64,000 nt of DNA from contig JBBTXS010000009.1 of NCBI GenBank assembly GCA_038062115.1, positions 91,681 to 155,680 on the forward strand. Reading direction: 5' to 3'. The stretch comes from Patescibacteria group bacterium (GTDB taxonomy: Bacteria; Patescibacteriota; Microgenomatia; Levybacterales; UBA12049). Under the pieces are notes generated by a model. It was not told where the DNA came from, ran no database searches, and saw only the letters and a list, made by a program, of their open reading frames with translations. A program made the position numbers and the translations under genes. Below, piece by piece: positions 12,038 to 61,490 of the stretch (position 1 is its first letter; every line of letters begins with the position of its first letter).

Positions 12038-12090
12038 AAGACAATAGGTTGCATGTAAAGCCAGCCTGATGTAGAATTGTTATTCATCCT

Positions 12091-18366: not shown

Positions 18367-19134
18367 TTATTGGGTCAAAATCATTGGCATATCTTTAGTA
18401 ATAGCAACTGTTCTTTCAAAAAGTCCAGAAAGACTTCCATCCTTTGTTTTAATTGTCCATCCATCATCGTTTGAGTAAACCACATCTGGTTTTCCCATGT
18501 TATAAATAACCTCAATTGCAATTACCATTTCCGCAAGAAGCTTGGGTGTATTTTCTACACTGCCAGCAAGAAAACCTGGAACCTCTGGCTCTTCATGCAG
18601 ACTCTTCCCAACCCCATGCCCTACAAGCGATCTAACCACAGAATATCCTTGTCCTTCTATAATTTTTTGGATATTCTTAGATATATGTCCTATCCTATTT
18701 CCAACTTTCGCAACATTGATCGCCTCCATCAAAGCCCTTTTCCCAGTTTCCAAAAACCTATAAACCTTATCTTCCTTTATCCTTAATCCTTTATCCTTAA
18801 TCCTTATTGTTTCCGCCATATCCGTATAGTAACCCTTGTAATACACTCCACAATCAATTCCAATAATATCTCCTTCTTTTAATTGGTATTTTGTTGGGAT
18901 GCCATGAACTACGACATCGTTAGTTGAGGTACATATTGCATGACAATATCCTTTAACTTTTTTAAATCCAGGCTCTGCTCCCTTTTCTTTTATCAACCTT
19001 TCCGCTAGGCTATCTAATTCAATCTCCGTAACGCCACTTTTTGCATGTTCCGAAACCTCAAACAAAACTTCTGCCAATATTTTTCCGCCTTGCCACATTA
19101 TCTCAATTTCTTTTTCGGTCTTTATGTCAATCAT
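18367..19134 (-). CDS. map: Methionine aminopeptidase type I
   Basis: VVHGIP, DIIGIDCG, GHGVGKSLHEEP and an EVIY-type pattern. Carries an in-frame CCTT(T)A(A)T repeat insertion (IKDKGLRIKEDK). Confidence 0.95.
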   Translation of the reverse strand: MIDIKTEKEIEIMWQGGKILAEVLFEVSEHAKSGVTEIELDSLAERLIKEKGAEPGFKKVKGYCHAICTSTNDVVVHGIPTKYQLKEGDIIGIDCGVYYKGYYTDMAETIRIKDKGLRIKEDKVYRFLETGKRALMEAINVAKVGNRIGHISKNIQKIIEGQGYSVVRSLVGHGVGKSLHEEPEVPGFLAGSVENTPKLLAEMVIAIEVIYNMGKPDVVYSNDDGWTIKTKDGSLSGLFERTVAITKDMPMILTQ

Positions 19135-19688
19135 GCATCTATCCCAAGGCGTTTAAGCAGTTTGTCTACCTCTCTATGTAATTCTTTTATGTCGTCCCCA
19201 TTATTAACAATAATATAATCTGCAATTGCTATTGGGCCTCCTTTATCGAGCTCTTCAAGTTCGGCAATATCTCTTCCTCTTGCTTCTTTAAGGGATAAAG
19301 GTCTTATTGCTCGTTTAGACAATCTTTCGTACCTCTTGGGCGGTTCTGCAAAAACATGTATCAGTATTAGACTAAGTAACTCTTTCTTTAAAAAAGTATA
19401 TTCCTCCCATGAATAAAGTCCGTCAAGCACTATCACATCGTGATCTTTAAGAAGCTTGTCTATTCTTGGCTTCATTTTTATGGCGTATGCTGCCATTCCA
19501 AGTTCTTGACGAAGCTTCTCCCTTACCATTCTTTCGTTTTCCTGAATAAGAGGTAAGCCTAAGGTACTGATGGTCTCATCTGTTATTTGTCCAAATCTAG
19601 CAAACGGAATATTTTTTGTTTCAAGATATTTTGTTGCTTCTGTCTTTCCCGCACCAGCCATTCCCACAATTGCAATTATTTTATTCAT
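19131..19688 (-). CDS. P-loop nucleotide/nucleoside kinase-like protein (resembles archaeal UPF0200 / dephospho-CoA-kinase-like family)
   Basis: Walker A IVGMAGAGKTE. The pattern VLDGLYSWEEY...RYERLSKR...RDIAELE..GGPIAIADYIIVNNG is recalled from archaeal UPF0200 proteins. Family assignment is from memory only. Confidence 0.55.
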   Translation of the reverse strand: MNKIIAIVGMAGAGKTEATKYLETKNIPFARFGQITDETISTLGLPLIQENERMVREKLRQELGMAAYAIKMKPRIDKLLKDHDVIVLDGLYSWEEYTFLKKELLSLILIHVFAEPPKRYERLSKRAIRPLSLKEARGRDIAELEELDKGGPIAIADYIIVNNGDDIKELHREVDKLLKRLGIDA

Positions 19689-33878: not shown

Positions 33879-34197
33879 ATGTCTTCCAAGCACTAATTTT
33901 ATCATTAAACTATGCATAAATCCACCCCATAATTTTCCTATTAGTTGCAGAGTCGCTAAAGCGAATCGCAAATACCCGTATTGGTGTATGTTTTTTCTGA
34001 CCTTTTTACCTGACTTATCAATCCCTAAAGATACATACTCATCAACATCTATTATCCTCATAATCACCGGTAAAATAAGTGAAGGATTAGTTATTTTCTC
34101 TTATTCTTTTTATAGTTATCTTCATTTTAAATGGACTATATCAAAAAATTAAATCTTCTAATTGCTTTCTTCTTTAAAAATTTTCTATAATGATCTT

Positions 34198-34743
34198 ATG
34201 AATAAGTTTTTGATTCCTACAATAGTTATCGTTGTTATAGGGATCAGTGGCTTTTTTGTCTTCGGTAAGCCTAGTTCCGAACCTTCTATGCAAACCCCTG
34301 TTCTTTCCTCGCCAACATCAATTTCAACAGAAGCTACACAACCAGCGCAAGATGAAACGGTCAATTATCAAGCCGTATTCGCCATTTACACAAATAGTGT
34401 TTTTCGCGTATTTACTGCACCAATGTATCACAATTTATCTAAAGATGTGTATATTCAAGCAGATAATCCTAATATTGTGCTTGTTAAAAAATCAGGAGTT
34501 AGCTGGAATGATTTTTTCAATACACTCCCATTTAGTGTAACAAAAGACTGTCTAATTACCGGTACTAAAGAAACATTTTGTACCAATCCAACCAAAACCT
34601 TAAAATTTTATCTTAATCGAGTACGAAACGACAATCTGCTTAATCTTGAAATAAAACCAAACGATAAGGTGTTAATTACCTACGGCGACGAAAATGAAAC
34701 AGAAATTAACAAGCAAATAGAAAAACTGTCTTCAAGCTTTTAG
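34198..34743 (+). CDS. Membrane-anchored/secreted hypothetical protein
   Basis: MNKFLIPTIVIVVIGISGFFVF signal-anchor, then a Cys-containing soluble domain. Start moved to 34198. Confidence 0.6.
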   Translation: MNKFLIPTIVIVVIGISGFFVFGKPSSEPSMQTPVLSSPTSISTEATQPAQDETVNYQAVFAIYTNSVFRVFTAPMYHNLSKDVYIQADNPNIVLVKKSGVSWNDFFNTLPFSVTKDCLITGTKETFCTNPTKTLKFYLNRVRNDNLLNLEIKPNDKVLITYGDENETEINKQIEKLSSSF

Positions 34744-37570: not shown

Positions 37571-38188
37571 TCAATGGTTATCTTTGTTGAACACAGTCAC
37601 TGAGTCTCTATTGAATTGCTCTTCTATAGTTAGAGTATTACCATTCTTTAAAAGTGTTAGTTTTAACTTGATGGTCTGTTTGCCATTTAGAGGTTGATTG
37701 CCAAATTGGATATGCCAATGAAGCTTGCCTTTTTGTCCCGGGGTTAAACTTAAGAATTCACCTTTGTAGTACTGTGGAGAAATATTAAGATATTCTATTT
37801 TGTCCCAACTTTGTTTGGAGGGAAATTTTTCCCAAGTACCGCTTTTTTGAGAATAGGTTTTATCTTCTACCGCGTAAGTTAAATCGAATGACTTTACTTG
37901 TAAATCAGAGGAGGTGTCATTAAACAAAAGAATCTCTGTTTCCTCATTGGAAAAATTTCCTTCCCCTGGCCAATAATGTTGTAAGGAAACTCCACCCTTT
38001 TGGTAAAAAGGTTTCTTCATTCCATAACCTCCGGAAGAGTTTTGTTGCTGAGGGGGTTGGTTTTGTAGGTTCTGGGGGTGTTGGTTTGACTCACCAGATT
38101 GTCGCGGGGATTTATCACCTGGTTTGAACATAATAACGAGTCCTCCTAAAACCGCAACGATGATTACTACGAATATTACTTTCGTCAT
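37571..38188 (-). CDS. Membrane-anchored hypothetical protein
   Basis: N-terminal TM VIFVVIIVAVLGGLVIMF, a Q/N/P-rich linker, then a beta-rich domain. Overlaps the upstream gene by 4 nt. Confidence 0.55.
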   Translation of the reverse strand: MTKVIFVVIIVAVLGGLVIMFKPGDKSPRQSGESNQHPQNLQNQPPQQQNSSGGYGMKKPFYQKGGVSLQHYWPGEGNFSNEETEILLFNDTSSDLQVKSFDLTYAVEDKTYSQKSGTWEKFPSKQSWDKIEYLNISPQYYKGEFLSLTPGQKGKLHWHIQFGNQPLNGKQTIKLKLTLLKNGNTLTIEEQFNRDSVTVFNKDNH

Positions 38189-39507
38189 CTTTTAAACTCT
38201 GCATAATTGGTGAGTTTCCAGAGGCCACCGCCGCATGAAGTTTGGTTTGTTTTTTCAATCTGTAAGGTTGTTGAAGTGGGCATAGTAAGCATAATAACTA
38301 CTCTAACATTATTCCTATAGGTATCGTCTGTTTCAAAACAATACACATTACCATCTGCTTTTATGTCCTTAAAATGTCTGTTAATGCGTTCCGAGTCTTG
38401 AGGTTGAAAGTTGTAAGTTCCCCAAGAAAACCCTTTACTTTCAGCTGAGTTTCCCATTGAGATTACCCCAATGGTTGGATCTGTATTGTCATAAGCCAAA
38501 GCCAAATGGGGATTCTCATGAGCCACATATTCCTCACCTTTTGCTATCCATACTCCTTGCGCTGTCCCTGGAAGATCCCAGTTGGCTTGCCCACAGACAG
38601 GTTCTGCCGTTCTTTTTCGCCCTCCGTCTGGAGTTCCTAAGCGAGATTTTAGCTGTTCTTTTAATGGAGCAGTGTAATAATCAAGCGGACAGACAGTGTA
38701 TTGCTTTTGTTCCTGGCCAAGCCAGCGTTTTGGATTTGCCAAAGTTGCAGGAGTCGCTCTTTTATCAAATAAACCAAAATCAAACACCATCTGTCCTTCT
38801 CCTCCACCGGCAGTACCTATTTGTTCACCAGCTTTCACCTGAATATTTACCCTTTTATTGCAAAGCTTAAAGGTTAACGTCCCAAACTTTTTGTAAGACC
38901 TTTGGTATTCATCGCACCTTAAGATCTGTCCTTCATCAAACGCTTTTTGGAGCTTTGAAGAAAACGTTTTGAAATGATCAAATAAACCTTTCACTTCTCT
39001 ACATGGAGAAAAATGAATCACTCCATCATTAAAATCTGGCCTTTCTTTTGCCTCGGTAAACCGAATCTCTGTAATGGTTATATCTGCAGGAGCAAAAGCA
39101 GGGATTTCTACTGGCAAACTGTTGAAATTATTCGGGTCTATGCGTCTGGGATGAAAATATAGATGGTGGGTAGGCAGGACATGAGAGGTAGGAGCAAGAG
39201 TTCCCAAAGGGACAATACCATTAAAGTCAGTGGGGTTTAGAGGAGCTACAGAAAAAAGCTCTCTTTTACTCCCACAAGAAGGAAGATTGGCAACATCAGA
39301 AAACCAGTCCTGCGATTGATCTCCTGTATGATTTTGATTTGCTTGTTGTTTTTGTGAATACTTAGGCGTCTCTTGTTGGAAACGCTGCATAATAACAAAA
39401 CCTAATCCAAGCAGTAGTGCCCCAAAAGCAAAGGCGCCAATAAGAAAATAACGAACAGTGAGCTTATTTTTTAACTCTTGAAATTTTGCAAGCATTTCTT
39501 CTTCCAT
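38185..39507 (-). CDS. Membrane-anchored Cys-rich hypothetical protein
   Basis: TM YFLIGAFAFGALLLGLGFVIM, a Q-rich linker, and a ~370-aa extracytoplasmic domain. VKAGEQIGTAGGGEGQMVFDFGLFD is only faintly LytM/M23-like, without the HxH motif. Confidence 0.55.
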   Translation of the reverse strand: MEEEMLAKFQELKNKLTVRYFLIGAFAFGALLLGLGFVIMQRFQQETPKYSQKQQANQNHTGDQSQDWFSDVANLPSCGSKRELFSVAPLNPTDFNGIVPLGTLAPTSHVLPTHHLYFHPRRIDPNNFNSLPVEIPAFAPADITITEIRFTEAKERPDFNDGVIHFSPCREVKGLFDHFKTFSSKLQKAFDEGQILRCDEYQRSYKKFGTLTFKLCNKRVNIQVKAGEQIGTAGGGEGQMVFDFGLFDKRATPATLANPKRWLGQEQKQYTVCPLDYYTAPLKEQLKSRLGTPDGGRKRTAEPVCGQANWDLPGTAQGVWIAKGEEYVAHENPHLALAYDNTDPTIGVISMGNSAESKGFSWGTYNFQPQDSERINRHFKDIKADGNVYCFETDDTYRNNVRVVIMLTMPTSTTLQIEKTNQTSCGGGLWKLTNYAEFKR

Positions 39508-45762: not shown

Positions 45763-45896
45763 AAAATGATAATACTAAAAAAAAAGCAGATTAACAATAG
45801 TTTGTTTCTACAACGCTCGTTGCGTATAGTATAATTCCCCTTAGGGGATTTCCCAGCAGGAGGCTAGCGGAGAGCGCAGCGAGGAGTTCACTAAGT

Positions 45897-46937
45897 ATGA
45901 AGTATAAACTTGTTGTTTGCGGAGGGACATTCGATCATTTTCATAAAGGGCATAGAGAATTTTTGCGATATGGGCTATCTATTAGCGATAAACTTCTTGT
46001 AGGGTTGACTACCGATGAATTCGTTAAGGCAAAAGATACGATTGGGCCAATTTACGATTACAAAACAAGAAAACAAGAGCTTGAAAATTTTTTTATTCAA
46101 GAGAAGGCAAGAAATAGAGTATCTATAGAACCAATTGGCAGTATTTATATACCAAAAATTTGGGAGCAGCTCTCAATAGAGGCAATTGTTGTATCAAAAA
46201 ATACAATTTCGGCTGCAAAGAAAATTAATTTAGTAAGAAAAGAGCAAAGAAAATATCCATTAATAATTAAGACTGTACAATTAGTTAAAAGCCAGCATAA
46301 TGAGTATATTTCTTCATCGAGTATAAGAAGTGGAGAAATTAATAGAGAAGGAAGACTAAATGTAAATCCCTATTGGTTAAATCACAGTTTGATTATTACA
46401 GAAGAATTGAAAAAAGAGTTTAAAAAGCCATTTGGGATACTCATTAAAGATAAAAAAGATTATGGTAATTTGATCTCCCCTTTTATTATAACAGTAGGGG
46501 ATATTACTACAAAAGTGTTTAACCAAATGGGTCAAAACCCTGATATTTCTGTTGTAGATTTTCGTGTTGCAAGGCATAAAGAGTTTTTTAGTCTTAAAGA
46601 TCTTGGTTTTTCGAAAGTGCAAGAAGTTATTAGGGTAAATAATCCACAAGGATATTTAACTTCTGATCTTTTCGAAGCAGTTTCTAATATATTTGGATCA
46701 CCGAAGAGTAGATGCCGCATAGTGCTTAAAATAGAAGGAGAAGAAGATCTTTCTGTATTGCCCTTAACACTTCGCGCTCCTCTTTCCTCAATAGTATTTT
46801 ACGGTCAACCAGGAGAAGGAGTTGTAAGGGTAGATATAACCGAAAGGAGCAAAGAAGTAGCCTATGGTCTTGCTAATCAATTCAAAATTGTCAATACCAA
46901 TTTCGACAGCCCATTAAAAAAAATATTGTACTTGTAA
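45897..46937 (+). CDS. Fusion protein: archaeal-type phosphopantetheine adenylyltransferase (cytidylyltransferase fold) + DUF359 (archaeal GTP-dependent dephospho-CoA kinase family)
   Basis: N-terminal domain: VVCGGTFDHFHKGH ... ISSSSIRSGE. C-terminal domain: ITVGDITT...DISVVDFRVARH...VNNPQGYLTSDL...IEGEEDLSVLPLTLRAPLSSIVFYGQPGEGVVRV, matching the VGD / NP.G / GEEDL / YGQP pattern recalled for DUF359. Confidence 0.7.
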   Translation: MKYKLVVCGGTFDHFHKGHREFLRYGLSISDKLLVGLTTDEFVKAKDTIGPIYDYKTRKQELENFFIQEKARNRVSIEPIGSIYIPKIWEQLSIEAIVVSKNTISAAKKINLVRKEQRKYPLIIKTVQLVKSQHNEYISSSSIRSGEINREGRLNVNPYWLNHSLIITEELKKEFKKPFGILIKDKKDYGNLISPFIITVGDITTKVFNQMGQNPDISVVDFRVARHKEFFSLKDLGFSKVQEVIRVNNPQGYLTSDLFEAVSNIFGSPKSRCRIVLKIEGEEDLSVLPLTLRAPLSSIVFYGQPGEGVVRVDITERSKEVAYGLANQFKIVNTNFDSPLKKILYL

Positions 46938-51315: not shown

Positions 51316-51330
51316 GTGATACAATTGTAT

Positions 51331-51417
51331 TGTCATTGCGAGCGCAAGGCGAAGCAATCTCCACTCTTATTGAGATCGCCACGGGACGCACCGTCTGGTG
51401 CATCCCTCGCGATGACA
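51331..51417. repeat. Palindromic GTCATTGCGAGCG-type element upstream of pcrA
   Basis: TGTCATTGCGAGCGCAAGGCGAAGCAATC...GCATCCCTCGCGATGACA. It produces the false N-terminal extension in the ORF track. Confidence 0.8.
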
Positions 51418-51437
51418 CAGTTCACTTATTATACTCT

Positions 51438-53360
51438 ATGCAAAAAGAATTTCTCAAGGACTTAAATCTGGAGCAAAAAAAAGCGGTCCTACATAACCTG
51501 GGCCCAATGATAATTTTAGCAGGTGCTGGGTCTGGAAAAACAAGAGTGTTAACCTATAAAGTTATATATCTAATAAAACAAAAAGGTATAGATCCCCTAA
51601 ATATCCTTATGGTAACATTTACAAACAAGGCAGCGAACGAGATGAAAGAACGTGTGCAAAGATTTCTAGCTACCGACCAATCACCAATCACCAATCACCA
51701 ATCACCCACTATCTCCACTTTCCATTCTATTTGCGCCAAAATACTAAGGATTGATGGAAAATATATTGGTATTTCTTCTAGATTTGTTATTTATGATACG
51801 CAAGACCAGACAGATGCAACAAAAGAAGCTATGAAAAAACTTAGTATATCTGTTAAAGACTATAAACCAGTATCTATTTTAGCAACTATTTCTCAGGCAA
51901 AAAACGAGCTTATTTCAGACGCAGAGTATTCTAAATATGCAAGAGGACATTTTCAAGAGACTGTAGCAAAAGTTTATCCAGTTTATCAAGAAATTCTCAA
52001 AGCAAATTATGCACTTGATTTTGACGATTTATTGCTAAAAACAGTTTATCTTTTTGAACAAAATCCTCAGCTTCTTGAAAAGTATCAAAATCGCTTTCGT
52101 TATATTTTGATAGACGAATATCAAGATACAAACCATGCGCAGTATACACTTGCAAAAATGCTTTCAGATAAATTTAAAAATATTTGTGTCGTTGGAGACT
52201 TTTCTCAAAGTATTTATAGTTGGAGAGGAGCAGATTTTAGAAATCTAACAAAATTTAAAACTGATTTTAAAAATGTAGTAACTTTTGCGCTTTCTCAAAA
52301 TTATCGCTCAACCCAAAAAATTTTAGATGCAGCATCTTCTGTTATATCTAGAAATACTACCCATCCAGTGCTTAAACTTTGGACAGAAAATCCAAATGGA
52401 GAAGATGTTACCATTTATGAGGCAGGAAACGAGCATGAAGAAGTAGAATTTATCGTTAGTCAATTATCCAATTTGAAATATGAAATTACAAATTTAAAGT
52501 ATACAGATTTTGCCATTCTTTACAGAACCAATGCTCAATCTAGAATCATTGAAGAAGTTTTTATACATAGAGGTACCCCATATATTTTAATTGGAGGAAC
52601 AAGGTTTTACGAAAGAAAAGAAATAAAAGATGTATTAGCATATCTTAGAGTCTTAGCAAATTCAAAAGACATGGTTTCTTACAAACGGATTGAGAAATTA
52701 GGTAAAGGAAGGCTTGAAAAGTTTCTAGATTTTCAGAATAAAGTCATTCTGGGGATCCGCCAGCTGGCGGAGACTCCAGAATCTCCTGATACGAAAAGAC
52801 ATTCTGGACAAGCCAGAATGACGACTATTGATATTTTGGATCAAGTTCTTAAAAAAACAGAATATCTATCTTTATATAATGAGAAAAATGAAGAAGATAG
52901 AACAAGACTAGAAAATATTAAAGAACTGCGTTCTGTTGCTGTTTCGCTACCAAAACTTACGCAATTCTTAGAAAATGTTTCCCTTGTTGAACAAGAATAC
53001 CTGCCAGATAAACCTAATAATAACGGAAAAAAAGATGCAGTAACCTTAATGACCTTACATGCTGCTAAAGGACTCGAGTTTCCTATAGTTTTTATGATTG
53101 GCATGGAAGAAGGACTTTTTCCTCATAGCAGAAGCTTAATGGACAAGAACGAACTCGAAGAAGAAAGAAGACTCTGCTATGTAGGGATGACTAGAGCCAA
53201 AAGTCGACTTTTCCTAACATACACAAGACAACGACTTTTCTTTGGACAAAAAATGTCAAACACTGTCTCTAGATTTATTTTTGAGCTTCCAGAGAGCGTT
53301 CTTGCTAAAAATCTTAAGTCTATTAATAAACAGAAAAGCGAAATACCAGAATGGCTATGA
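51438..53360 (+). CDS. pcrA: ATP-dependent DNA helicase PcrA/UvrD family
   Basis: LNLEQKKAV...ILAGAGSGKTRVLT, ILIDEYQDTN, QNYRST and TLHAAKGLEFP motifs. Contains two in-frame repeat inserts. Confidence 0.93.
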   Translation: MQKEFLKDLNLEQKKAVLHNLGPMIILAGAGSGKTRVLTYKVIYLIKQKGIDPLNILMVTFTNKAANEMKERVQRFLATDQSPITNHQSPTISTFHSICAKILRIDGKYIGISSRFVIYDTQDQTDATKEAMKKLSISVKDYKPVSILATISQAKNELISDAEYSKYARGHFQETVAKVYPVYQEILKANYALDFDDLLLKTVYLFEQNPQLLEKYQNRFRYILIDEYQDTNHAQYTLAKMLSDKFKNICVVGDFSQSIYSWRGADFRNLTKFKTDFKNVVTFALSQNYRSTQKILDAASSVISRNTTHPVLKLWTENPNGEDVTIYEAGNEHEEVEFIVSQLSNLKYEITNLKYTDFAILYRTNAQSRIIEEVFIHRGTPYILIGGTRFYERKEIKDVLAYLRVLANSKDMVSYKRIEKLGKGRLEKFLDFQNKVILGIRQLAETPESPDTKRHSGQARMTTIDILDQVLKKTEYLSLYNEKNEEDRTRLENIKELRSVAVSLPKLTQFLENVSLVEQEYLPDKPNNNGKKDAVTLMTLHAAKGLEFPIVFMIGMEEGLFPHSRSLMDKNELEEERRLCYVGMTRAKSRLFLTYTRQRLFFGQKMSNTVSRFIFELPESVLAKNLKSINKQKSEIPEWL

Positions 53361-54451
53361 ATATAAATAGCGTTGCAACTCATCCCCTGCAATCTTTAAA
53401 CTGGGGAGAGTTTAGAAAAAAAACTGGGGTTAAAGTTGTTAGACAAAATGGATTACAAATAACAATTCACAAAATACCCCATTTTGCTTGGACAATTGGA
53501 TATTTTCCAAAAGGCACCATGCCAACAGAGGAAGTAATTCATGAGCTTGAAAAAATTGGTAAAAATGAAAGATGCATTTTTATTCAGATCGAACCGAATA
53601 TAGCTATTGCTCGTCATTCTGGGGAGGAGGAACGACGACTCCAGAATCTCTCTCGGATGCAACATGAGAACGTAAGAGATTCTGGACAAGCCAGAATGAC
53701 AGAATACGGACTTCGTCCCGCCGCTCATCCTCTCTTCACCAAATATACTTTTATTCTCGGGCTAACAAAATCAGAGGATGAACTACTGAAAAACATGCAT
53801 CCCAAAACTAGGTACAATATTAAAGTTGCTCAAAAACACGGCGTTAAGGTAATTGAAGATAACTCAGATGAAGCATTTGAAACATACTTAAGACTTACTA
53901 GGGAAACAACCAAAAGACAAGGCTTTTATGCACATACAGAAAATTACCATAGATTAATGTGGGAAACCCTCGGAATTCAGAATTCAGAATCTATAATTCA
54001 GAATTTCGATAGGAATAAATTGACAGCACATCTTTTTTTGGCAAAATATATACCTCCTTCGTCTAATTCTGAATTATTAATTATAAATTCTAAATTGCAA
54101 GCGCTAACGCTTGCCGCTTGGATTCTTTTTGTCTATAAAGATACACTTTATTATCCCTATGGAGCATCATCAAACCAGTATCGCGAAACTATGGCATCAA
54201 ATCTTATGATGTGGGAGGCAATAAAATTTGGAAAAAAATTAGGTCTTAAAAAATTCGATATGTGGGGAGCGCTGGGCCCAAATCCAGACACTAATGATCC
54301 GTGGTATGGTTTTCATAGATTTAAAGAAGGATATGGCGGAAAATTGGTTGAATTTGTTGGAAGTTACGATCTTGTTATAAATCCAATTTTATATCAACTA
54401 TATAAATTTGCAGATAAACTTCGCTGGTTGATCTTGAAACTTAAAAGCTAA
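53351..54451 (+). CDS. FemAB-family peptidoglycan interpeptide-bridge aminoacyltransferase
   Basis: NMHPKTRYNIKVAQKHGV...YPYGASSN.YRE.MASNLMMWEAIKFGKKLGLKKFDMWG. Contains three in-frame repeat-derived segments. Confidence 0.85.
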   Translation: MAMNINSVATHPLQSLNWGEFRKKTGVKVVRQNGLQITIHKIPHFAWTIGYFPKGTMPTEEVIHELEKIGKNERCIFIQIEPNIAIARHSGEEERRLQNLSRMQHENVRDSGQARMTEYGLRPAAHPLFTKYTFILGLTKSEDELLKNMHPKTRYNIKVAQKHGVKVIEDNSDEAFETYLRLTRETTKRQGFYAHTENYHRLMWETLGIQNSESIIQNFDRNKLTAHLFLAKYIPPSSNSELLIINSKLQALTLAAWILFVYKDTLYYPYGASSNQYRETMASNLMMWEAIKFGKKLGLKKFDMWGALGPNPDTNDPWYGFHRFKEGYGGKLVEFVGSYDLVINPILYQLYKFADKLRWLILKLKS

Positions 54452-55037: not shown

Positions 55038-55088
55038 TGTAAGATTTCAGTCGAAATAATTGTAGTGTAATATCACTGAAATCTTACA
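55038..55088. repeat. 51-bp hairpin repeat R1 (14-bp perfect arms)
   Basis: TGTAAGATTTCAGT-cgaaataattgtagtgtaatatc-ACTGAAATCTTACA. Confidence 0.9.
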
Positions 55089-55361
55089 ATCGAAGCCCAT
55101 GCCCTAATACTCTCTGCCCTTGGCATAAGTCAGGCAGCCCAGTTTCTCAAAGACATGGAAGAAAGTAACACAGTGGTCATTCGGGTGCGGGCCGCTGATG
55201 AAGAACGGGCGAAACAGATTCTCTTTCAATACGACGACAAAGACTTTTCCTTTGCTGATGCGATCAGCTTTGCTGTCATAGAGCGACTGCGCATCTCCTA
55301 CGCCTTCACTTTTGACCACCACTTCACCCAGTACGGTCTAACCGTTCTTACCGCCAGTTAG
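55089..55361 (+). pseudogene. vapC: 5'-truncated PIN-domain (VapC-like) toxin gene
   Basis: The frame is open from directly after R1: IEAHALILSALGISQAAQFLKDMEESNTVVIRVRAADEERAKQILFQYDDKDFSFADAISFAVIERLRISYAFTFDHHFTQYGLTVL*. The first ~30 aa, including the first acidic residue, are missing. Visibly higher GC than the flanks. Confidence 0.65.
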
Positions 55362-55661: not shown

Positions 55662-55719
55662 ACATTTTGCCACTTGACAATAAATCGTATATCTATTCTA
55701 TAATCGAGTAAGTACCCCC

Positions 55720-55867
55720 TGTAAGATTTCAGTCAAAATAGAGGAAAATTTGCAATGCCTGGGGGTTGAAAGTATATATAGTTTACCTTGCAAATACAGT
55801 CTAAAACAGAAATTAGCTGATTTATCATCTATTGCAAATTGTAGTATAATATCACTGAAATCTTACA
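55720..55867. repeat. 148-bp hairpin repeat R2 (same arms as R1, expanded loop containing a copy of the sodX 3' end)
   Basis: Left arm 55720-55733 and right arm 55854-55867. 55720-55787 is nearly identical to 56392-56460. The loop end AATTGTAGTATAATATC matches the R1 loop end. Confidence 0.9.
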
Positions 55868-55888
55868 GTCGGAGAAGGGAGCACTGTT

Positions 55889-56332
55889 ATGGGTTCGTCA
55901 AAGATAAGTTTCGCAGTAGTCACAGCAGTTTTCTTGGCAGTGGCGGGTGTTTTGGCGGTCTTTGAGGTGTTTGCTAACAGCGTGTCAGCCGCACCCAAGA
56001 TCACAGACCCGCTAGTTGTGAAAGCGTGCATGCGGGCTAACGGCAATATTCGGGTGACCATGACTTGGCATGACCTGGAAGGCGGAGTAGGAGCGGTGAC
56101 TGGGATTGCGAGCTATTATGCAGGTGCTCGAACTGCTTCACTAGCCTACACGCAGTTCCGCTACCAGACTAGTCCCTACCCTTTGTCTGGGCGGCAGGTC
56201 ATGGAATTTGCGCCGGCTCCGAACGTTCCGAGTCCAAATGACGGCCCCGTAAATCAGGTCTTTTACATCTTCGGCACTACACCTCCCTCAGTCGACTTCA
56301 GTGGCAGCATCACGGACTTCCGGAAATGCTAG
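55889..56332 (+). CDS. Secreted hypothetical protein (signal peptide, two Cys), GC-rich cargo gene
   Basis: MGSSKISFAVVTAVFLAVAGVLAVFEVFANSVSA|APK... SD-like AAGGGAG lies 8-9 nt upstream. Codon and GC usage are clearly unlike the neighbours. Confidence 0.65.
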   Translation: MGSSKISFAVVTAVFLAVAGVLAVFEVFANSVSAAPKITDPLVVKACMRANGNIRVTMTWHDLEGGVGAVTGIASYYAGARTASLAYTQFRYQTSPYPLSGRQVMEFAPAPNVPSPNDGPVNQVFYIFGTTPPSVDFSGSITDFRKC

Positions 56333-56391
56333 TGGGTCACTTGTCACGGATATAGCCTTTTCTCCAAGCTGTTAACTGTCATGAGCATGAC

Positions 56392-56436
56392 TGTAAGATT
56401 TCAGTCAAAATAGAGGAAAATTTGCAATGCCTGGGG
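56392..56436. repeat. Solo left arm R3 + shared 31-nt segment abutting sodX stop
   Basis: TGTAAGATTTCAGTCAAAATAGAGGAAAATTTGCAATGCCTGGGG, identical to 55720-55764. Confidence 0.9.
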
Positions 56437-56736
56437 TTAGAAAGTATATATCACTTTACCGATAATATCGTTTTTTGAGATCCAGCCAAACCTCTTACTA
56501 TCCATACTATCTTTTTCGTTGTCTCCTTTTACGAAATATTTTTTTCCGTCATCTGACTGATCAATTTTGGTAATTCTTTTCATAAGCACTCTCTCATTTT
56601 TTCTAAAAACCACAATATCACCCATTTTTGGTTTTGAGAAAAAATAGGGAAGGCTGCTTGCTAAAACACTTTGTCCATTTTTAATAGTAGGTTCCATGCT
56701 GTGGCCTTCGATCTTGAAAAGTGAAAAAAGAAGCAT
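56437..56736 (-). CDS. sodX: S26-family signal-peptidase-like NiSOD maturation protease
   Basis: GHSMEPTIKNG (catalytic Ser), VLMKRI (Lys) and GDNEKDSMDSR. Immediately downstream of sodN. Confidence 0.8.
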   Translation of the reverse strand: MLLFSLFKIEGHSMEPTIKNGQSVLASSLPYFFSKPKMGDIVVFRKNERVLMKRITKIDQSDDGKKYFVKGDNEKDSMDSKRFGWISKNDIIGKVIYTF

Positions 56737-56755: not shown

Positions 56756-57268
56756 TTATTGCTTAGGAATAATTATTGTTCCACCGCTTGGGTAAGGAGC
56801 ATTTATTTTTGTTGATTTTATACTTTTTGTCTTCCAAAATATTTCTGCTATTTCTTGAACAGTCTCTAAGAGGTTGTTCGCGGCATCAATATTTACTTCT
56901 TGCCGAGCCTTTGATGCAAGCTTCATTGTTTTAAATACTAAATCATGAAGTTCTGGATATTTATTCAAGTGTTCATCTTTAAAATAATCTCCCCACAAAA
57001 CTCGAATTTCATGTTTAACAATCTCGGCATGTTCTTCTTTTACTTTTGTGTAGCGGGAGAGTGCATGAATAAATTTCTTTCTTTCCTCAATAGACGCATT
57101 TTGATCAATCTTTAAATCGCGAATAAGATTCGTCATTCTAATAACAGTATGTGCTGCCATTTGCGCATTGTGCGGATCATAAATTCCACAAGGAATATCG
57201 CAGTGACCATAAGCAATTTGTGTTGGTAAAATTTTAGATACCAATAAAAATAATCTTTGCATTATCAT
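56756..57268 (-). CDS. sodN: Nickel-containing superoxide dismutase precursor
   Basis: The Ni-hook HCDIPCGIYDP follows a leader peptide. VLWGDYFK, YPELHDLV and IFWKTK match the Streptomyces SodN pattern. Confidence 0.9.
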   Translation of the reverse strand: MIMQRLFLLVSKILPTQIAYGHCDIPCGIYDPHNAQMAAHTVIRMTNLIRDLKIDQNASIEERKKFIHALSRYTKVKEEHAEIVKHEIRVLWGDYFKDEHLNKYPELHDLVFKTMKLASKARQEVNIDAANNLLETVQEIAEIFWKTKSIKSTKINAPYPSGGTIIIPKQ

Positions 57269-57305: not shown

Positions 57306-58514
57306 TTAACTTTGTTTCAGTTCGCTTTCAAATTTATTCCACTTCCTGAAAGCTTTAAGCATGGGCAAAATTCCTAAAAGATATAGAAGGAATACTATCT
57401 GCTCAACGATCCAACCAATAACTCCACCAATATAAAAATTATTTATCTGTAAAATCGCAAAATGGCCTTTTAAAGGAACAATATATCCAAAATGAGACAA
57501 CTTATATTCTTTAAGAGGTAATTTTTTTATAAGTCTATAAATATTCTCTGCTGCAATTTTTCCCTGTTTTTGGGCAACTTCTGCAACTAGTGGCGCATAC
57601 TTTTTTGTTTTATGATCTATAAATTCTGCATTATCACCAATAGCAAAAATGTTATCAAAGCCTACAACTTGCAAATAATTATTGACTATTAATTGTCCTT
57701 TTGCATTGGTCGCAAAACCGCATTTAGCAATTATGCTTGCTGTCCTTACTCCTCCTGTCCAAATAAAGATATCGTAATTATAAGAATTACCAATATCTGT
57801 TTTTATGGCATCTTTGTTTACACTTTTAACATATTCACCCAAACAAAGTCTAACCCCAAAACTCTCTAGACGTTTTTTGGCGATTTCTGATGCTTTTTGG
57901 TCTAATTCTTTTAATAAACGCTCAGATTTTTGGATAAGCATTACTCTCATGCAGTCATCTTTACAAAAAAGTTGTTTTGCAAGACGTTCTCGAAAACTTA
58001 TAAGTTCTGCGACAAGCTCTGTTCCCGAAAACCCACCTCCCCCAATAACAACATCTACTACTCCTAATTTTGCTTTTTTGTGATATGCATTTTTGATCGC
58101 TTTTTTAATCTCTATTGCATCGGATAAAGTTTTTAGCGTAAGACTGTGTTGGGTAAGTCCGGGTATACCAAAATAAGCAGGTTCACTTCCCAAAGCAATA
58201 ACCAGATAATCGTAATAAAAACAAGCCTTATTTTTTGTTCTTATAAACTTATTTTCCGTATCAATTAAAGTAATCTCTCCACGAGCAACACTTACTTTGC
58301 GCTCAAAAATTTCTTTTAAAGGTATTGCTATATTTTTTTTCGGTGCCTCAGATGTTGCAACTTCATAAAGTGATGGGGTAAACAAATGATAATTATTTTT
58401 ATCTAAAAGGGTAATTCTAATATCAAGTTCGCATGCCTTTTTTACAAGCTCTAAAGCTGTTCTTATACCGGCAAATCCACCACCTAAAATAACGACATTT
58501 TTATTAAAGCTCAT
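57306..58514 (-). CDS. NDH-2-like FAD-dependent pyridine nucleotide-disulfide oxidoreductase with C-terminal membrane anchor
   Basis: Two dinucleotide folds: VVILGGGFAG and VVIGGGGFSGTE. GDNA motif. C-terminal hydrophobic helices. Confidence 0.85.
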   Translation of the reverse strand: MSFNKNVVILGGGFAGIRTALELVKKACELDIRITLLDKNNYHLFTPSLYEVATSEAPKKNIAIPLKEIFERKVSVARGEITLIDTENKFIRTKNKACFYYDYLVIALGSEPAYFGIPGLTQHSLTLKTLSDAIEIKKAIKNAYHKKAKLGVVDVVIGGGGFSGTELVAELISFRERLAKQLFCKDDCMRVMLIQKSERLLKELDQKASEIAKKRLESFGVRLCLGEYVKSVNKDAIKTDIGNSYNYDIFIWTGGVRTASIIAKCGFATNAKGQLIVNNYLQVVGFDNIFAIGDNAEFIDHKTKKYAPLVAEVAQKQGKIAAENIYRLIKKLPLKEYKLSHFGYIVPLKGHFAILQINNFYIGGVIGWIVEQIVFLLYLLGILPMLKAFRKWNKFESELKQS

Positions 58515-59262: not shown

Positions 59263-60219
59263 TTAATTAACGTATTTTTGGATATTTAAGTTATGAGCTT
59301 CAAGAGTTTTGGCAAAGTGTAAGTGTCCAGATTTATCAGAAATGTAATACAAATAATCTGTAAGTGCTGGGTTTAAAACTCTCTGTAAGGCATCAAGTCC
59401 TGGATTTGCAATAGGAGCCGGTGGAAGACCAATATTTTTGTAAGTATTGTAGGAAGAATTAATATTTAAATCTTCAAGGGTTAAATTTTTCTTCCACCAT
59501 CTTTTCTCATTTTTTTGATAGCCTAAAGTATATTGTACTGTTGCGTCAATCTGTAAAGGCATAGAAAGCTTGAGTCTGTTTAAAACGACAGAGGCTACAA
59601 GGGGTCGATCTTTTTGGAATTTTGCTTCGCGTTCTATCATGGACGCAATAATTACAATTTGTTGAGTCGAAAGATTACTGTTTGGGTTTTTTATACTCTT
59701 AAATTTTTTGTCAAAATTATTTTTCATAATATTTATTATAAGATTAATATCTGCATCTTTTGGAATAAGGTAAGTGTCGGGAAAAAGATATCCTTCATGC
59801 TCTACAAGTTGATTTCTCCAGCTTGATTGATAATTTGGTACATTTTTTTCGAGCATATCTGCTATTTCTTCGGCTCTTTGCCCTTCTGGAATCGTAACCC
59901 AAAGATCTATTGTTCCATGGGTAAGATTTTGGGCGATTTCTTCAGCGCTCATAGAAGGACTTAAGCGAAAATCCCCTGCTTCAATTTTCTTATCTAGCCC
60001 TAATTTTTTAATCATCAAGAAAAAAACAATAGGGTCTTTAATTAAATTTTTAGTTTTAAGCTTGTTTGCTATTTCGCGAACCTCTTCCCCCTTTGGTACT
60101 ACGAAGATATGAAATGTTTTATCGTTTGGGCTTGCGGGACTAATGCCATTCTGCCACCAAAGCATACCTATAATGCTTGATGCAATAATAAGAATAACGA
60201 GTAAGAATAGTTTTTTCAT
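59263..60219 (-). CDS. mltG: Endolytic murein transglycosylase MltG (YceG-like)
   Basis: N-terminal TM, then SMIEREA...YNTYKNIGLPPAPIANPG...HLHFAKTLEAHN. Confidence 0.9.
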   Translation of the reverse strand: MKKLFLLVILIIASSIIGMLWWQNGISPASPNDKTFHIFVVPKGEEVREIANKLKTKNLIKDPIVFFLMIKKLGLDKKIEAGDFRLSPSMSAEEIAQNLTHGTIDLWVTIPEGQRAEEIADMLEKNVPNYQSSWRNQLVEHEGYLFPDTYLIPKDADINLIINIMKNNFDKKFKSIKNPNSNLSTQQIVIIASMIEREAKFQKDRPLVASVVLNRLKLSMPLQIDATVQYTLGYQKNEKRWWKKNLTLEDLNINSSYNTYKNIGLPPAPIANPGLDALQRVLNPALTDYLYYISDKSGHLHFAKTLEAHNLNIQKYVN

Positions 60220-61490
60220 ACGAAATCCAATATTGGAAAATGCAATAAAGACTCTTTTGCTTCTTTGAGAGTATACAAGTTTTCGCTAAAAAGCGTATAG
60301 AGCGTTTGTCCTTTTTGAGCTGTTTCTCCAATTTTTCTGTCCAAGACTATACCAGCGCCTTTCTGTTTTGGTGCACCTAATATTTTTGCAATTATAGTAA
60401 GATTTTTACTACCTATACTTTTTACAACCCCATTTTTAGACGCTGTTATTTTATAATAAAATTTTCCCGGTTTTAAATCCTCGCTATCTATATGTTGACG
60501 ACCTTCTTGTACATGAATTATTTCCTGCATTTTTCTAAAGGCAAGGCCGTTTCTTAGGATTTTTGTTGCCCATCCAAAACAGTTGCCATAATTTTTTTTA
60601 ACATAAGTCTGAAGTATTTCTGGAGAATCTTTTAGACAAATCTCTAAAAGATTTCCGGCAAGATTTATACTTCTAATCTCAAGATCGAGCGGTCGATTTG
60701 GTTTTTGTTGTAATACCCTAAGCGCTTCTCTGGTTTCTAGTATTGGCCCAATCCCGCGTCCTTCTGGTTGATTTGTTTTATGAATTAAAATACGAATTTT
60801 TATATTGAATTTTTTTGCTAGATACTCAAATTTTTCTTTTAGAACTTCTGCATCTTTTAACCTATGTATTTTTACTGTTTTACCATATGGTAAATCGATT
60901 ACAACATGATTTGAGCCAAATGCAATTTTTTTAGCCATTATAGATACTATAATTTTGTCGAAACTTTCAAGTATTAGTGGTTTTTCTACATTTATTAGTG
61001 CATCATCCGCCGGGGCTATATTAAAGCTTCCTCCCCATACAATACAACCATTTGTTTTTTTAACTATTTCATATATTTTTTCTTTTGTAAATGTAACTTT
61101 GGCCAATGTTTCCATGTCATCTGCTGTTCCACTACATGTAGTGATTGCTTTAGATGAACTTTTGGGAATGGTAAAGCCAGCTGCTGCAACAATTGGCACA
61201 ACAATAAGTGTTGTACGAGTTCCCGGTACGCCTCCGATGGAGTGTTTATCGGCAACTATCCCTGAGAATTTCAATTTTTCCCCGGTTTCAACCATTGCTT
61301 TTGTTAGAAAATAAAGCTCTTGATTAGAAAATCCTTTTGAATAACCCGATGCTGCAAAATAGGTTGTTAAAATGTCTCCCAGTCGGTTGTGCGCTATTTG
61401 ATCCATGATTGAATACAATTCTTTATACGTTAATGGTTTACCAAGCAGTTTTTTTTGTATGGCACTTATTGCAATATTTAAGGCTTTCAT
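60216..61490 (-). CDS. deoA: Pyrimidine-nucleoside / AMP phosphorylase family protein
   Basis: DKHSIGGVPGTRTTLIVVPI...SSKAITTCSGTADDMETL. 424 aa. Confidence 0.8.
   Translation of the reverse strand: MKALNIAISAIQKKLLGKPLTYKELYSIMDQIAHNRLGDILTTYFAASGYSKGFSNQELYFLTKAMVETGEKLKFSGIVADKHSIGGVPGTRTTLIVVPIVAAAGFTIPKSSSKAITTCSGTADDMETLAKVTFTKEKIYEIVKKTNGCIVWGGSFNIAPADDALINVEKPLILESFDKIIVSIMAKKIAFGSNHVVIDLPYGKTVKIHRLKDAEVLKEKFEYLAKKFNIKIRILIHKTNQPEGRGIGPILETREALRVLQQKPNRPLDLEIRSINLAGNLLEICLKDSPEILQTYVKKNYGNCFGWATKILRNGLAFRKMQEIIHVQEGRQHIDSEDLKPGKFYYKITASKNGVVKSIGSKNLTIIAKILGAPKQKGAGIVLDRKIGETAQKGQTLYTLFSENLYTLKEAKESLLHFPILDFV

What the first reader, a model, noticed from the sequence alone, without database searches (positions are those of the whole stretch)
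45897..46937. Single-polypeptide fusion of archaeal-type PPAT and DUF359 (archaeal GTP-dependent dephospho-CoA kinase) in a bacterium
Residues ~1-150 carry the cytidylyltransferase-fold signatures GGTFDHFHKGH and ISSSSIRSGE, typical of archaeal/eukaryotic-type phosphopantetheine adenylyltransferase. Residues ~170-335 carry the motifs I recall for DUF359/COG1909: VGD, NPxG, GEEDL and YGQPxxG. DUF359 is the family shown to be the archaeal dephospho-CoA kinase. The last two CoA-biosynthesis steps would then be fused, as in eukaryotic CoA synthase, but built from archaeal-type parts and located in a CPR-like bacterium. This suggests a CoA salvage route of archaeal origin.
Basis: partly seen in the sequence, partly recalled or inferred. 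Interest (0 to 1): 0.58.

Follow-up and report, generated by a model that had tools for sequence, protein, structure and literature searches.

The report
Archaeal-type fused CoA synthase in CPR bacterium
A groundwater CPR (Microgenomates/Levybacteria-like) bacterium encodes one 346-residue protein that joins the archaeal-type enzymes for the last two steps of coenzyme A synthesis; the fusion is real and looks intact, but the same architecture is already known from uncultured archaea and is common, though undiscussed, in CPR genomes.

Summary
ORF 45897..46937 (+) encodes 346 aa. The N-terminal half is an archaeal/eukaryotic-type phosphopantetheine adenylyltransferase (PPAT), scoring 133.6 bits against NCBIfam NF001985 (cutoff 104). 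The C-terminal half is a DUF359/arCOG04076 GTP-dependent dephospho-CoA kinase (DPCK), scoring 98.8 bits against PF04019 (cutoff 25).

All PPAT motifs are present, and so are the three Asp residues shown by mutagenesis to matter in T. kodakarensis DPCK. These positions do not vary in 38 homologs. A confident AlphaFold model (pLDDT 90) superposes on 8jvc (DPCK) and 3do8 (archaeal PPAT). The window is bacterial by its ribosomal operon, RpoA and EF-Tu.

The architecture is not new. The PPAT–arCOG04076 fusion in uncultured archaea was the clue that led to the archaeal DPCK in 2019. At least 554 species-level genomes encode the fused protein, mostly Levybacteria and other Microgenomates plus some Micrarchaeota (DPANN). 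Fused C-halves form one clade (bootstrap 0.51) nested among standalone DPCKs whose named members are all archaeal. This fits one fusion event and one inter-domain transfer, direction unresolved.

I found no paper describing the bacterial occurrence. Whether it is the only CoA route (salvage) could not be tested. Verdict: new member of a known kind, moderate interest.

The parts
45897..46937 (+). Complete gene for the 346-aa bifunctional PPAT/DPCK (stop codon included)
   Evidence: ORF list. Both Pfam domains lie in one uninterrupted frame. All 120 listed homologs have similar length and cover at least 88% of the query, and 119 of them carry both Pfam domains in the precomputed column.
45900..46361 (+). 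N-terminal PPAT domain (aa 2-155), archaeal/eukaryotic type
   Evidence: NF001985 scores 133.6 bits against a cutoff of 104 over aa 2-155. PF01467 scores 56 bits against 21. 3do8 matches by sequence at E 2e-10 and by fold with target TM 0.77-0.80.
45921..45953 (+). Nucleotidyltransferase signature GGTFDHFHKGH (aa 9-19, contains the HxGH motif)
   Evidence: Motif positions. G9, G10, T11, F12, D13, G18 and H19 are invariant and H16 is at least 90% conserved in 38 homologs.
46308..46328 (+). Second PPAT signature ISSSSIR (aa 138-144)
   Evidence: S139, S140, I143 and R144 are invariant in 38 homologs.
46362..46391 (+). Short inter-domain connector (aa 156-165)
   Evidence: It lies between the two HMM matches. 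It is modelled with high confidence, with block pLDDT 93-95. The variable insertion hotspot seen in some homologs lies further on, between window residues about 185 and 195.
46392..46892 (+). C-terminal DUF359 / GTP-dependent dephospho-CoA kinase domain (aa 166-332)
   Evidence: PF04019 scores 98.8 bits against a cutoff of 25. 8jvc matches at E 2e-20 over aa 167-321. Foldseek to 8jvc/8jvg gives E about 1e-14 and target TM 0.84-0.88.
46500..46502 (+). Asp202 (in VGD), aligned with catalytic Asp48 of TK1697
   Evidence: Alignment to 8jvc. The D48A mutant was severely defective. Invariant in 38 homologs.
46557..46559 (+). Asp221, aligned with Asp67 of TK1697
   Evidence: Invariant in 38 homologs.
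46746..46748 (+). Asp284 (in GEEDL), aligned with Asp125 of TK1697
   Evidence: G281, E282, E283, D284 and L285 are invariant.
45881..45886 (+). Shine-Dalgarno-like GAGGAG, 10 nt upstream of the ATG
   Evidence: Read directly from the sequence printed. This is an inference only.
45807..45835 (+). Promoter-like TCTACA-17-TATAAT in the 134-nt gap to the divergent upstream gene
   Evidence: Consensus scan, 10 of 12 matches, but the number of such sites in the region is no higher than in shuffles. Weak evidence.

Best explanation
The gene encodes a bifunctional CoA synthase built from archaeal-type parts. The N-terminal domain (PPAT) transfers AMP from ATP to 4'-phosphopantetheine and makes dephospho-CoA. 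The C-terminal domain (DUF359-type DPCK, a derived Rossmann-like fold distantly related to thiamine pyrophosphokinase) then phosphorylates the 3'-hydroxyl of dephospho-CoA to give CoA. By analogy with the T. kodakarensis enzyme, the phosphate donor is probably GTP.

What is shown: both domains are assigned by HMMs, the fold agrees, and all known catalytic residues are present and conserved. What is inferred: the two activities themselves, the GTP preference, any channelling of dephospho-CoA between the fused active sites, and the physiological role.

The most likely role is to supply CoA in a genome-reduced CPR bacterium. This could be the end of a complete pathway. More probably, by analogy with the truncated PPAT+DPCK pathways proposed for mycoplasmas, it converts scavenged 4'-phosphopantetheine into CoA.

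On evolution, the fused gene belongs to one family shared by Microgenomates (CPR) and Micrarchaeota (DPANN). Its kinase half nests within archaeal DPCKs, which implies an archaeal origin of the parts and at least one inter-domain transfer of the already fused gene.
For: Domain assignment: PF01467 and PF04019 both score above Pfam's cutoffs. The NCBIfam PPAT subfamily NF001985 scores above its cutoff, and bacterial CoaD (TIGR01510) scores far below its own.

Solved relatives: 8jvc, a GTP-dependent DPCK, at E 2e-20, and 3do8 at E 2e-10.

Structure: AlphaFold2 gives pLDDT 90.2 and pTM 0.86. Foldseek places the C-half on 8jvc/8jvg (target TM 0.84-0.88) and the N-half on 3do8 (0.77-0.80).

Catalytic residues: TK1697 Asp48, Asp67 and Asp125, whose Ala mutants impaired growth, align with Asp202, Asp221 and Asp284. 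These, together with GGTFD..GH and SS..IR, are invariant in 38 homologs of 43-93% identity, which indicates purifying selection on both active sites.

Functional logic: the same fusion in archaea was used to predict, and then prove, DPCK function for the family.

Prevalence: 1195 database hits, and 119 of the 120 listed carry both Pfam domains. At least 554 species-representative genomes encode a relative, and 79 of the 80 fetched loci encode a full-length fused ORF; the remaining one is cut by the contig end. Of the 150 closest 50%-identity clusters for the kinase half, 132 are proteins of 300 aa or more, consistent with fused forms.

Bacterial host: bacterial RpoA, EF-Tu, L2, S3, L17, SecY, MltG, sortase, PlsY, LytR and FemAB are all in the same window.

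Phylogeny: all 101 fused C-halves form one clade (bootstrap 0.51) apart from 24 standalone sequences, and every named one of those is archaeal.
Against: No bacterial or fused member of this family has been assayed. Identity to the characterised T. kodakarensis enzyme is only about 30%. The kinase half scores far below the narrow Thermococcales equivalog cutoff (88 bits against 300), as expected for a distant lineage. The residues that specify GTP could not be checked, because the structure paper was not available. No CoA-related gene is a conserved neighbour, so genomic context adds no support. The rest of the genome was not visible, so a canonical CoaD/CoaE elsewhere cannot be excluded. Bootstrap support for the key phylogenetic nodes is only about 0.5, from NJ trees on about 170-330 columns.
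Confidence: 0.8

Rival explanations
1. The protein is active as proposed but redundant. The genome also carries canonical bacterial CoaD/CoaE, or another DPCK, so there is no displacement and no dependence on an archaeal-type route.
For: Only 64 kb of the genome was visible. A P-loop kinase related to archaeal CoaE-like proteins lies at 19131..19688 (-). It matches AAA_18 and PRK08356 and the UPF0200/AdkA-like structures 3lw7 and 3h0k at E about 4e-10.
Against: That P-loop ORF does not match the CoaE family at E below 0.01. The T. kodakarensis CoaE homologs of arCOG01045, which it may resemble, had no DPCK activity. No ORF in the window matches CoaD, CoaE or CoaBC.
Confidence: 0.15
2. The DUF359 half phosphorylates a different substrate, for example pantetheine or another cofactor precursor, in line with its distant relationship to thiamine pyrophosphokinase. 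The protein would then not be a CoA synthase in the strict sense.
For: About 30% identity to the only characterised member. The family is distantly related to thiamine pyrophosphokinases. No assay exists for any fused or bacterial member.
Against: It is fused to PPAT, whose product is the DPCK substrate. All three catalytic Asp are conserved, as are the family motifs NPxG, GEEDL and YGQP. The fused clade nests within the DPCK family, which belongs to the pan-archaeal core. The fusion was the successful basis for predicting the function.
Confidence: 0.06
3. The N-terminal domain is a different nucleotidyltransferase, for example FMN adenylyltransferase, NMNAT or a sugar-phosphate or glycerol-phosphate cytidylyltransferase.
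For: PF01467 is a broad superfamily. Weak matches to glycerol-3-phosphate cytidylyltransferase and to NMNAT/Nudix models are listed.
Against: Only the PPAT subfamily model exceeds its curated cutoff (133.6 bits against 104). All other models fall far below theirs, for example TIGR01518 at 31.8 against 165. The best structural match for this half is 3do8, which is labelled PPAT in the PDB sequence file.
Confidence: 0.04
4. Artefact: the gene is archaeal DNA mis-assembled into a bacterial contig.
For: Both halves are of archaeal type.
Against: The identical protein, with the same upstream gene and a similarly placed large downstream ORF, occurs in three independent assemblies. GC content is uniform across the window. 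Hundreds of CPR genomes, including complete chromosomes, carry it. True archaeal loci have about 59% GC, against about 37% here.
Confidence: 0.01

Closest known systems
Archaeal fused PPAT-arCOG04076 proteins (e.g. AIF21550.1 of a group II/III euryarchaeote, cited by Shimosaka et al. 2019; Micrarchaeota proteins P0267, P0269 and P0280 found here)
   Same: For the Micrarchaeota proteins examined here: the same two domains in the same order (PPAT N-terminal, DUF359 C-terminal), similar length (about 320-345 aa) and alignment over the full length. Micrarchaeota members are 31-41% identical to CPR members, and their C-halves fall in the same fused clade.
   Different: The host is a bacterium (CPR/Microgenomates) rather than an archaeon, with low-GC coding and a different gene neighbourhood. 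The relation to the MGII/III fused proteins could not be examined, because their sequences were not retrievable.
T. kodakarensis TK1697 (GTP-dependent DPCK, PDB 8jvc/8jvf/8jvg) and TK2128 (PPAT)
   Same: The same families and fold for the two halves. The catalytic residues Asp48, Asp67 and Asp125 are conserved.
   Different: In T. kodakarensis the two enzymes are separate proteins. Identity is about 30%. That enzyme is thermophilic, whereas this one comes from a groundwater organism, presumably mesophilic.
Eukaryotic CoA synthase (COASY)
   Same: One polypeptide carries PPAT followed by DPCK. The PPAT domain belongs to the same archaeal/eukaryotic PPAT type. (Domain order is from general knowledge; the bifunctionality is stated in the abstract listed and.)
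   Different: The COASY kinase domain is a P-loop CoaE-type DPCK (PF01121) that uses ATP. Here the kinase is the unrelated DUF359 fold, so the two fusions are convergent in their kinase halves.
Bacterial CoaD + CoaE
   Same: The same two reactions.
   Different: These are separate genes. CoaD is a different subfamily (TIGR01510 scores 23 bits against a cutoff of 103). CoaE is a P-loop kinase with no similarity to the C-half.
Archaeal bifunctional PPAT/NTP phosphatase (NCBIfam NF002250)
   Same: An archaeal-type PPAT domain is fused to a second enzyme. The PPAT half matches at 95 bits.
   Different: The partner domain is an NTP phosphatase, not DUF359. The full-length cutoff of 489 is not met.

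Membership tests
Archaeal/eukaryotic-type PPAT (NCBIfam NF001985; Pfam PF01467 superfamily) | Profile score above the curated cutoff | tested here: met
   NF001985 scores 133.6 bits against a cutoff of 104 over aa 2-155. PF01467 scores 56.2 against 21.
Archaeal/eukaryotic-type PPAT (NCBIfam NF001985; Pfam PF01467 superfamily) | HxGH nucleotide-binding motif and ISxxxIR motif | tested here: met
   GGTFDHFHKGH at aa 9-19 and ISSSSIR at aa 138-144. Both are conserved in 38 homologs.
Archaeal/eukaryotic-type PPAT (NCBIfam NF001985; Pfam PF01467 superfamily) | Nucleotidyltransferase Rossmann-like fold resembling a solved archaeal PPAT | tested here: met
   Foldseek to 3do8 chains A and B gives E 5e-6 and 1e-5, target TM 0.77-0.80.
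Archaeal/eukaryotic-type PPAT (NCBIfam NF001985; Pfam PF01467 superfamily) | Adenylyl transfer from ATP to 4'-phosphopantetheine | not testable with these tools
   Needs an enzyme assay.
GTP-dependent dephospho-CoA kinase (DUF359 / PF04019 / arCOG04076) | Profile score above Pfam's gathering cutoff | tested here: met
   PF04019 scores 98.8 bits against a cutoff of 25, covering profile positions 1-125 of 126.
GTP-dependent dephospho-CoA kinase (DUF359 / PF04019 / arCOG04076) | Three conserved Asp residues needed for function (TK1697 D48, D67, D125) | tested here: met
   They align with D202, D221 and D284, which are invariant in 38 homologs.
GTP-dependent dephospho-CoA kinase (DUF359 / PF04019 / arCOG04076) | Fold of the solved T. 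kodakarensis DPCK | tested here: met
   Foldseek to 8jvc/8jvg gives E 8e-15 to 1e-13, target TM 0.84-0.88 and rmsd 2.1-3.7 A.
GTP-dependent dephospho-CoA kinase (DUF359 / PF04019 / arCOG04076) | DPCK activity and preference for GTP as phosphate donor | not testable with these tools
   Needs an assay. The residues that specify GTP could not be compared, because the structure paper was not available.
Thermococcales DPCK equivalog (NCBIfam NF041125) | Score above the equivalog cutoff | tested here: not met
   88.2 bits against a cutoff of 300. The model is lineage-specific, so the protein is not filed under it.
Fused PPAT-DPCK family shared with archaea | Both domains in one uninterrupted ORF, in the order PPAT then DPCK | tested here: met
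   The same order is seen in Micrarchaeota proteins that align over their full length.
Fused PPAT-DPCK family shared with archaea | Common descent with the archaeal fused proteins (one clade apart from standalone DPCKs) | tested here: inconclusive
   All 101 fused C-halves form one clade, but bootstrap is only 0.51 (NJ, 169 columns). The split between Micrarchaeota and CPR in full-length data has bootstrap 0.51.
Eukaryotic CoA synthase (COASY) | P-loop CoaE-type DPCK domain (PF01121) fused to PPAT | tested here: not met
   There is no PF01121 match. The C-half is PF04019. The protein works like COASY but is not a member.
Bacterial CoaD (TIGR01510) | Score above the equivalog cutoff | tested here: not met
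   23.4 bits against a cutoff of 103.3.

The most novel reading that the evidence does not exclude
Microgenomates (CPR) bacteria have wholly replaced the bacterial CoaD/CoaE pair with a single archaeal-derived, GTP-dependent bifunctional CoA synthase. On this reading they acquired it already fused by inter-domain transfer to or from DPANN Micrarchaeota living in the same aquifers, and it is their only way to make CoA, from scavenged 4'-phosphopantetheine. This would be the first bacterial lineage that depends on the archaeal DPCK family, and a shared cofactor-salvage module linking the two ultra-small radiations.
Probability: 0.4. Interest if true: 0.55.

Novelty: new member of a known kind. 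Interest (0 to 1): 0.4.

Why it matters
If the enzyme works as predicted, a large bacterial class makes CoA with archaeal machinery. The DUF359 DPCK would then no longer be an archaea-only family, as the discovery paper described it. It would also be a clear case of a fused metabolic gene shared between CPR bacteria and DPANN archaea.

There are practical consequences too. Public annotation names most of these proteins only 'pantetheine-phosphate adenylyltransferase', 'cytidyltransferase-like' or 'DUF359 domain-containing'. Metabolic reconstructions that look for CoaE will therefore wrongly score CoA synthesis as incomplete in these genomes.

The fused, mesophilic protein is also a convenient object for testing GTP dependence and substrate channelling. 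The finding does not open a new category, because the architecture and both activities are already known.

Tried and rejected
(1) Single-domain NJ trees rooted on one outgroup each (TkDPCK for the C-half, 3do8 for the N-half) gave deep nodes with bootstrap below 0.3, which is uninformative. I replaced them with an unrooted full-length test and a C-half tree with 25 standalone sequences. The strict split 'all fused against all standalone' failed, because one 190-aa sequence (P0242) pairs with a fused CPR protein. It may be a secondary fission or a mis-called gene.

(2) Gene neighbourhood: I clustered up to four genes on each side of the fusion gene in the 80 loci. The recurrent neighbours are GreA, SBP_bac_1, VanW, a generic RfaE-II-like adenylyltransferase, a Kbl-like aminotransferase, a Tdh-like dehydrogenase, class-I LysRS and Ham1. 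None belongs to the CoA pathway and none is shared with the window.

(3) The P-loop ORF 19131..19688 as a hidden CoaE: rejected by HMMs. Its nearest solved relatives are archaeal UPF0200/AdkA-like proteins.

(4) Ten literature searches found no description of the fusion in CPR. The TkDPCK structure paper is not in the library, so GTP-binding residues were not compared.

(5) Whole-genome absence of PanK/PoK, PPS, CoaBC, CoaD and CoaE could not be tested, because only 64 kb plus flanks of up to 10 kb on each side are reachable.

(6) Loci titled 'uncultured Gammaproteobacteria' were considered as a possible occurrence outside CPR. I rejected this for the group as a whole: about half of them share the Levybacteria synteny, and their mean GC is 37%, the same as the Levybacteria-labelled loci. 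The remainder were not individually verified.

(7) One locus labelled Saccharibacteria (L029) could not be confirmed or refuted as such.
Full report
**The observation.** The window has an ORF at 45897..46937 on the + strand, 346 aa with an ATG start. Pfam finds two domains above its curated cutoffs. CTP_transf_like (PF01467) covers aa 7-145 at 56.2 bits against a cutoff of 21. DUF359 (PF04019) covers aa 204-329 at 98.8 bits against 25, matching 125 of the 126 profile positions.

NCBIfam refines the N-half. The archaeal/eukaryotic-type PPAT subfamily NF001985 scores 133.6 bits, above its cutoff of 104. Bacterial CoaD (TIGR01510) reaches only 23 bits against a cutoff of 103. The C-half aligns end to end (aa 167-332) with the Thermococcales GTP-dependent DPCK model, but it scores below that narrow model's cutoff. 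Among solved structures, the best sequence matches are T. kodakarensis GTP-dependent DPCK (8jvc, E 2e-20, aa 167-321) and A. fulgidus 3do8, labelled PPAT (E 2e-10, aa 6-153).

**Is the protein intact and probably active?** Shimosaka et al. (2019) showed that Ala substitutions of Asp48, Asp67 and Asp125 in TK1697 impair growth. In the HMMER alignment to 8jvc these residues correspond to Asp202, Asp221 and Asp284 here. I aligned the window protein with 37 fused homologs of 43-93% identity. These three Asp never vary, nor do the surrounding VGD, GEEDL and YGQP motifs, nor the PPAT signatures G9-D13, G18, H19, S139, S140, I143 and R144. Both active sites are therefore under purifying selection.

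AlphaFold2 with this alignment gives a confident two-domain model, with mean pLDDT 90.2 and pTM 0.86; only the last 12 residues are disordered. Foldseek against the PDB places the C-half on 8jvc/8jvg (E about 1e-14, target TM 0.84-0.88) and the N-half on 3do8 (target TM 0.77-0.80). Other cytidylyltransferases and bacterial PPATs come further down the list.

**Is the host a bacterium?** Yes. The same window holds a bacterial ribosomal-protein operon and other bacterial hallmark genes. Bacterial RpoA, EF-Tu, bacterial-type L2 and S3, L17, SecY and MltG all score above their NCBIfam cutoffs, and a sortase is present. PlsY, LytR_cpsA_psr, FemAB, UvrD, RNase J, TIM and a Lon-like AAA protein surround the gene.

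Homologs that carry names are Patescibacteria, Microgenomates and Levybacteria. The exact protein is on record in metagenome contigs whose names begin 'Hain_...H32/H51_02um', with the same upstream gene and a similarly placed large downstream ORF. From these names I infer Hainich aquifer groundwater, 0.2 um fraction.

**How common is it, and is it known?** The fusion is widespread. There are 1195 database hits, and 119 of the 120 listed carry both Pfam domains at about 330-346 aa. Of the 80 loci fetched, 79 hold a full-length fused ORF and one is cut by the contig end. Those with meaningful names are mostly Levybacteria, plus Chisholm-, Curtiss-, Roizman- and Beckwithbacteria. About half of the loci titled 'uncultured Gammaproteobacteria' share the Levybacteria synteny, and as a group they have 37% GC, so I take those titles to be placeholders. 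An exhaustive search with the kinase half found 2146 clusters at 50% identity with E up to 1e-3, and 132 of the best 150 are proteins of at least 300 aa, consistent with fused forms.

The architecture itself is already published. [quoted passage not shown] That paper presents the family as archaeal: its iterative PSI-BLAST retrieved only arCOG04076 members. Ten full-text searches found no paper that mentions the family or the fusion in CPR bacteria. Public annotation mostly calls these proteins 'pantetheine-phosphate adenylyltransferase', 'cytidyltransferase-like' or 'DUF359 domain-containing'.

**Evolution.** Three of the 80 loci are archaeal by their titles. L059 and L072 are flanked by GatE, ribosomal protein S19e, archaeal SRP54, an archaeal CCA-adding enzyme, Elp3 and GGGP synthase. 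I recognised these from the translated sequences, not by HMM. All three archaeal loci have about 59% GC. The nearest relatives of the L072 fused protein are other Micrarchaeota (40-100% identity), followed directly by CPR proteins at about 39%.

In an unrooted NJ tree of full-length proteins (328 columns), the six named Micrarchaeota plus nine unnamed sequences separate from all 43 named CPR sequences in a single split, with bootstrap 0.51. The closest standalone DUF359 proteins that carry names are all archaeal: Micrarchaeota, Euryarchaeota and Halobacteriota. In a C-half tree with 25 standalone sequences, all 101 fused C-halves plus one 190-aa sequence form one clade (bootstrap 0.51), and the other 24 standalone sequences lie outside it.

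The simplest reading is one fusion event within archaeal DPCK diversity, followed by one transfer of the fused gene between DPANN and CPR. The direction is unresolved and support is modest. Gene exchange between Patescibacteria and Micrarchaeota or Nanoarchaeota in groundwater has been reported in general terms.

**Function in the cell.** The mechanism I commit to is PPAT making dephospho-CoA from 4'-phosphopantetheine and ATP, and the DUF359 domain phosphorylating it to CoA. The donor is probably GTP, as in T. kodakarensis. Whether this closes a complete pathway or a truncated salvage route could not be decided.

No ORF in the 64-kb window matches CoaD, CoaE, CoaBC or a pantothenate kinase. 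That screen samples only a few per cent of each genome. Truncated PPAT+DPCK routes fed by scavenged 4'-phosphopantetheine have been proposed for mycoplasmas, which makes the salvage reading plausible for a CPR organism.

Gene context gives no help. The neighbours conserved in Levybacteria are GreA, a solute-binding protein, VanW, a generic adenylyltransferase, Kbl/Tdh-like enzymes, class-I LysRS and Ham1. None is related to CoA and none is shared with the window. A promoter-like site and a Shine-Dalgarno-like GAGGAG precede the gene, and no terminator-like site separates it from the downstream DUF2298 gene. These signals are weak.

**A possible second DPCK.** ORF 19131..19688 (-), between map and adk in the ribosomal operon, is a P-loop kinase. 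It does not match CoaE. It matches AAA_18, the uncharacterised model PRK08356, and the archaeal UPF0200/AdkA-like structures 3lw7 and 3h0k. The archaeal CoaE homologs TK1334 and TK2192 (arCOG01045) lacked DPCK activity. The TK1334 primer encodes the N-terminus MIVIVTGM, which resembles this ORF, but I did not test membership.

**Verdict.** The protein works like eukaryotic CoA synthase but is not a member of that family, because its kinase half is an unrelated fold. It is a member of the fused PPAT-DPCK family already known from archaea, here in a bacterium. Novelty: new member of a known kind. Interest is moderate (0.4). The bacterial occurrence is undiscussed in the literature I could search and is relevant to CPR metabolic reconstruction and to CPR-DPANN gene sharing, but neither the architecture nor the chemistry is new.

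Noticed in passing
window 19131-19688 (-): A 185-aa P-loop kinase sits between methionine aminopeptidase and adenylate kinase in the ribosomal-protein operon. It is not CoaE by HMM. Its closest relatives are archaeal UPF0200/AdkA-like proteins (3lw7 and 3h0k, E about 4e-10) and the model PRK08356. It may be a bacterial copy of the archaeal CoaE-like kinases (arCOG01045), whose function is unknown.
   Followed up: partly
window 52743-52822 (inside the UvrD-like gene 51330-53360) and 53613-53700 (inside the FemAB-like gene 53351-54451); also the insertion hotspot early in the C-terminal half of fusion homologs P0010, P0015, P0034, P0040 and P0047: Palindromic inserts of about 80-90 nt (GTCATTCTGGGG...CCAGAATGAC) lie in frame inside conserved protein-coding genes and add peptides such as '...PESP...SGQARMT'. 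Similar peptides appear as insertions early in the C-terminal half of some PPAT-DPCK homologs, relative to the others. This resembles the Rickettsia palindromic elements that insert into coding genes (from memory, not tested).
   Followed up: partly
window 5245-5369, 11914-12038 (identical) and 2907-3031 (62% identical): A 125-nt intergenic repeat folds into a long hairpin (-46 to -52 kcal/mol, z-score -6 to -7 on either strand). The diverged copy keeps the outer stem through changes on both arms. There is no Rfam match at E up to 1. Its core, TCAGAATGACA, resembles the in-frame inserts above. It may be a MITE-like element or a structured RNA.
   Followed up: partly
window 55058-55095, 55719-55779, 55831-55874 and 56389-56451: Direct and inverted repeats of 38-61 nt (92-97% identical between copies) flank a small ORF of unknown function (55889-56332, predicted signal peptide by eye, no Pfam match).
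   Followed up: no
window 60216-61490 (-): Archaeal-type thymidine/AMP phosphorylase-like gene. NF003338 scores 458 bits, above its cutoff of 434. TIGR03327 (AMP phosphorylase) scores 418, below its cutoff. This is another gene in this bacterial window whose best models are archaeal.
   Followed up: no
window 56756-57268 (-) and 57306-58514 (-): A nickel superoxide dismutase (sodN, 161.8 bits against a cutoff of 90) lies next to a pyridine-nucleotide-disulfide oxidoreductase that has weak similarity to CoA-disulfide reductase (103 bits against 579). An oxidative-stress pair in a CPR genome.
   Followed up: no
L072 7983-8393 (-), L059 9445-9840 (-); 47 CPR loci, e.g. L024 5367-5912 (-): A second small adenylyl/cytidylyltransferase (RfaE-domain-II-like; TIGR00125 above cutoff) lies 230 bp upstream of the fused gene, divergently, in Micrarchaeota locus L072, with a similar small ORF close upstream in L059. 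In 47 Levybacteria-type loci it lies 2.8-9 kb upstream on the opposite strand. It is absent from the window, and its function and the meaning of the linkage are unknown.
   Followed up: partly
window 38185-39507 (-), 37571-38188 (-), 34162-34743 (+) and 62363-63913 (-): Four sizeable ORFs (193-516 aa). Three have no Pfam match at E up to 0.01, and 62363-63913 has only a weak sub-cutoff match to Baseplate_J. Typical CPR 'dark matter'.
   Followed up: no
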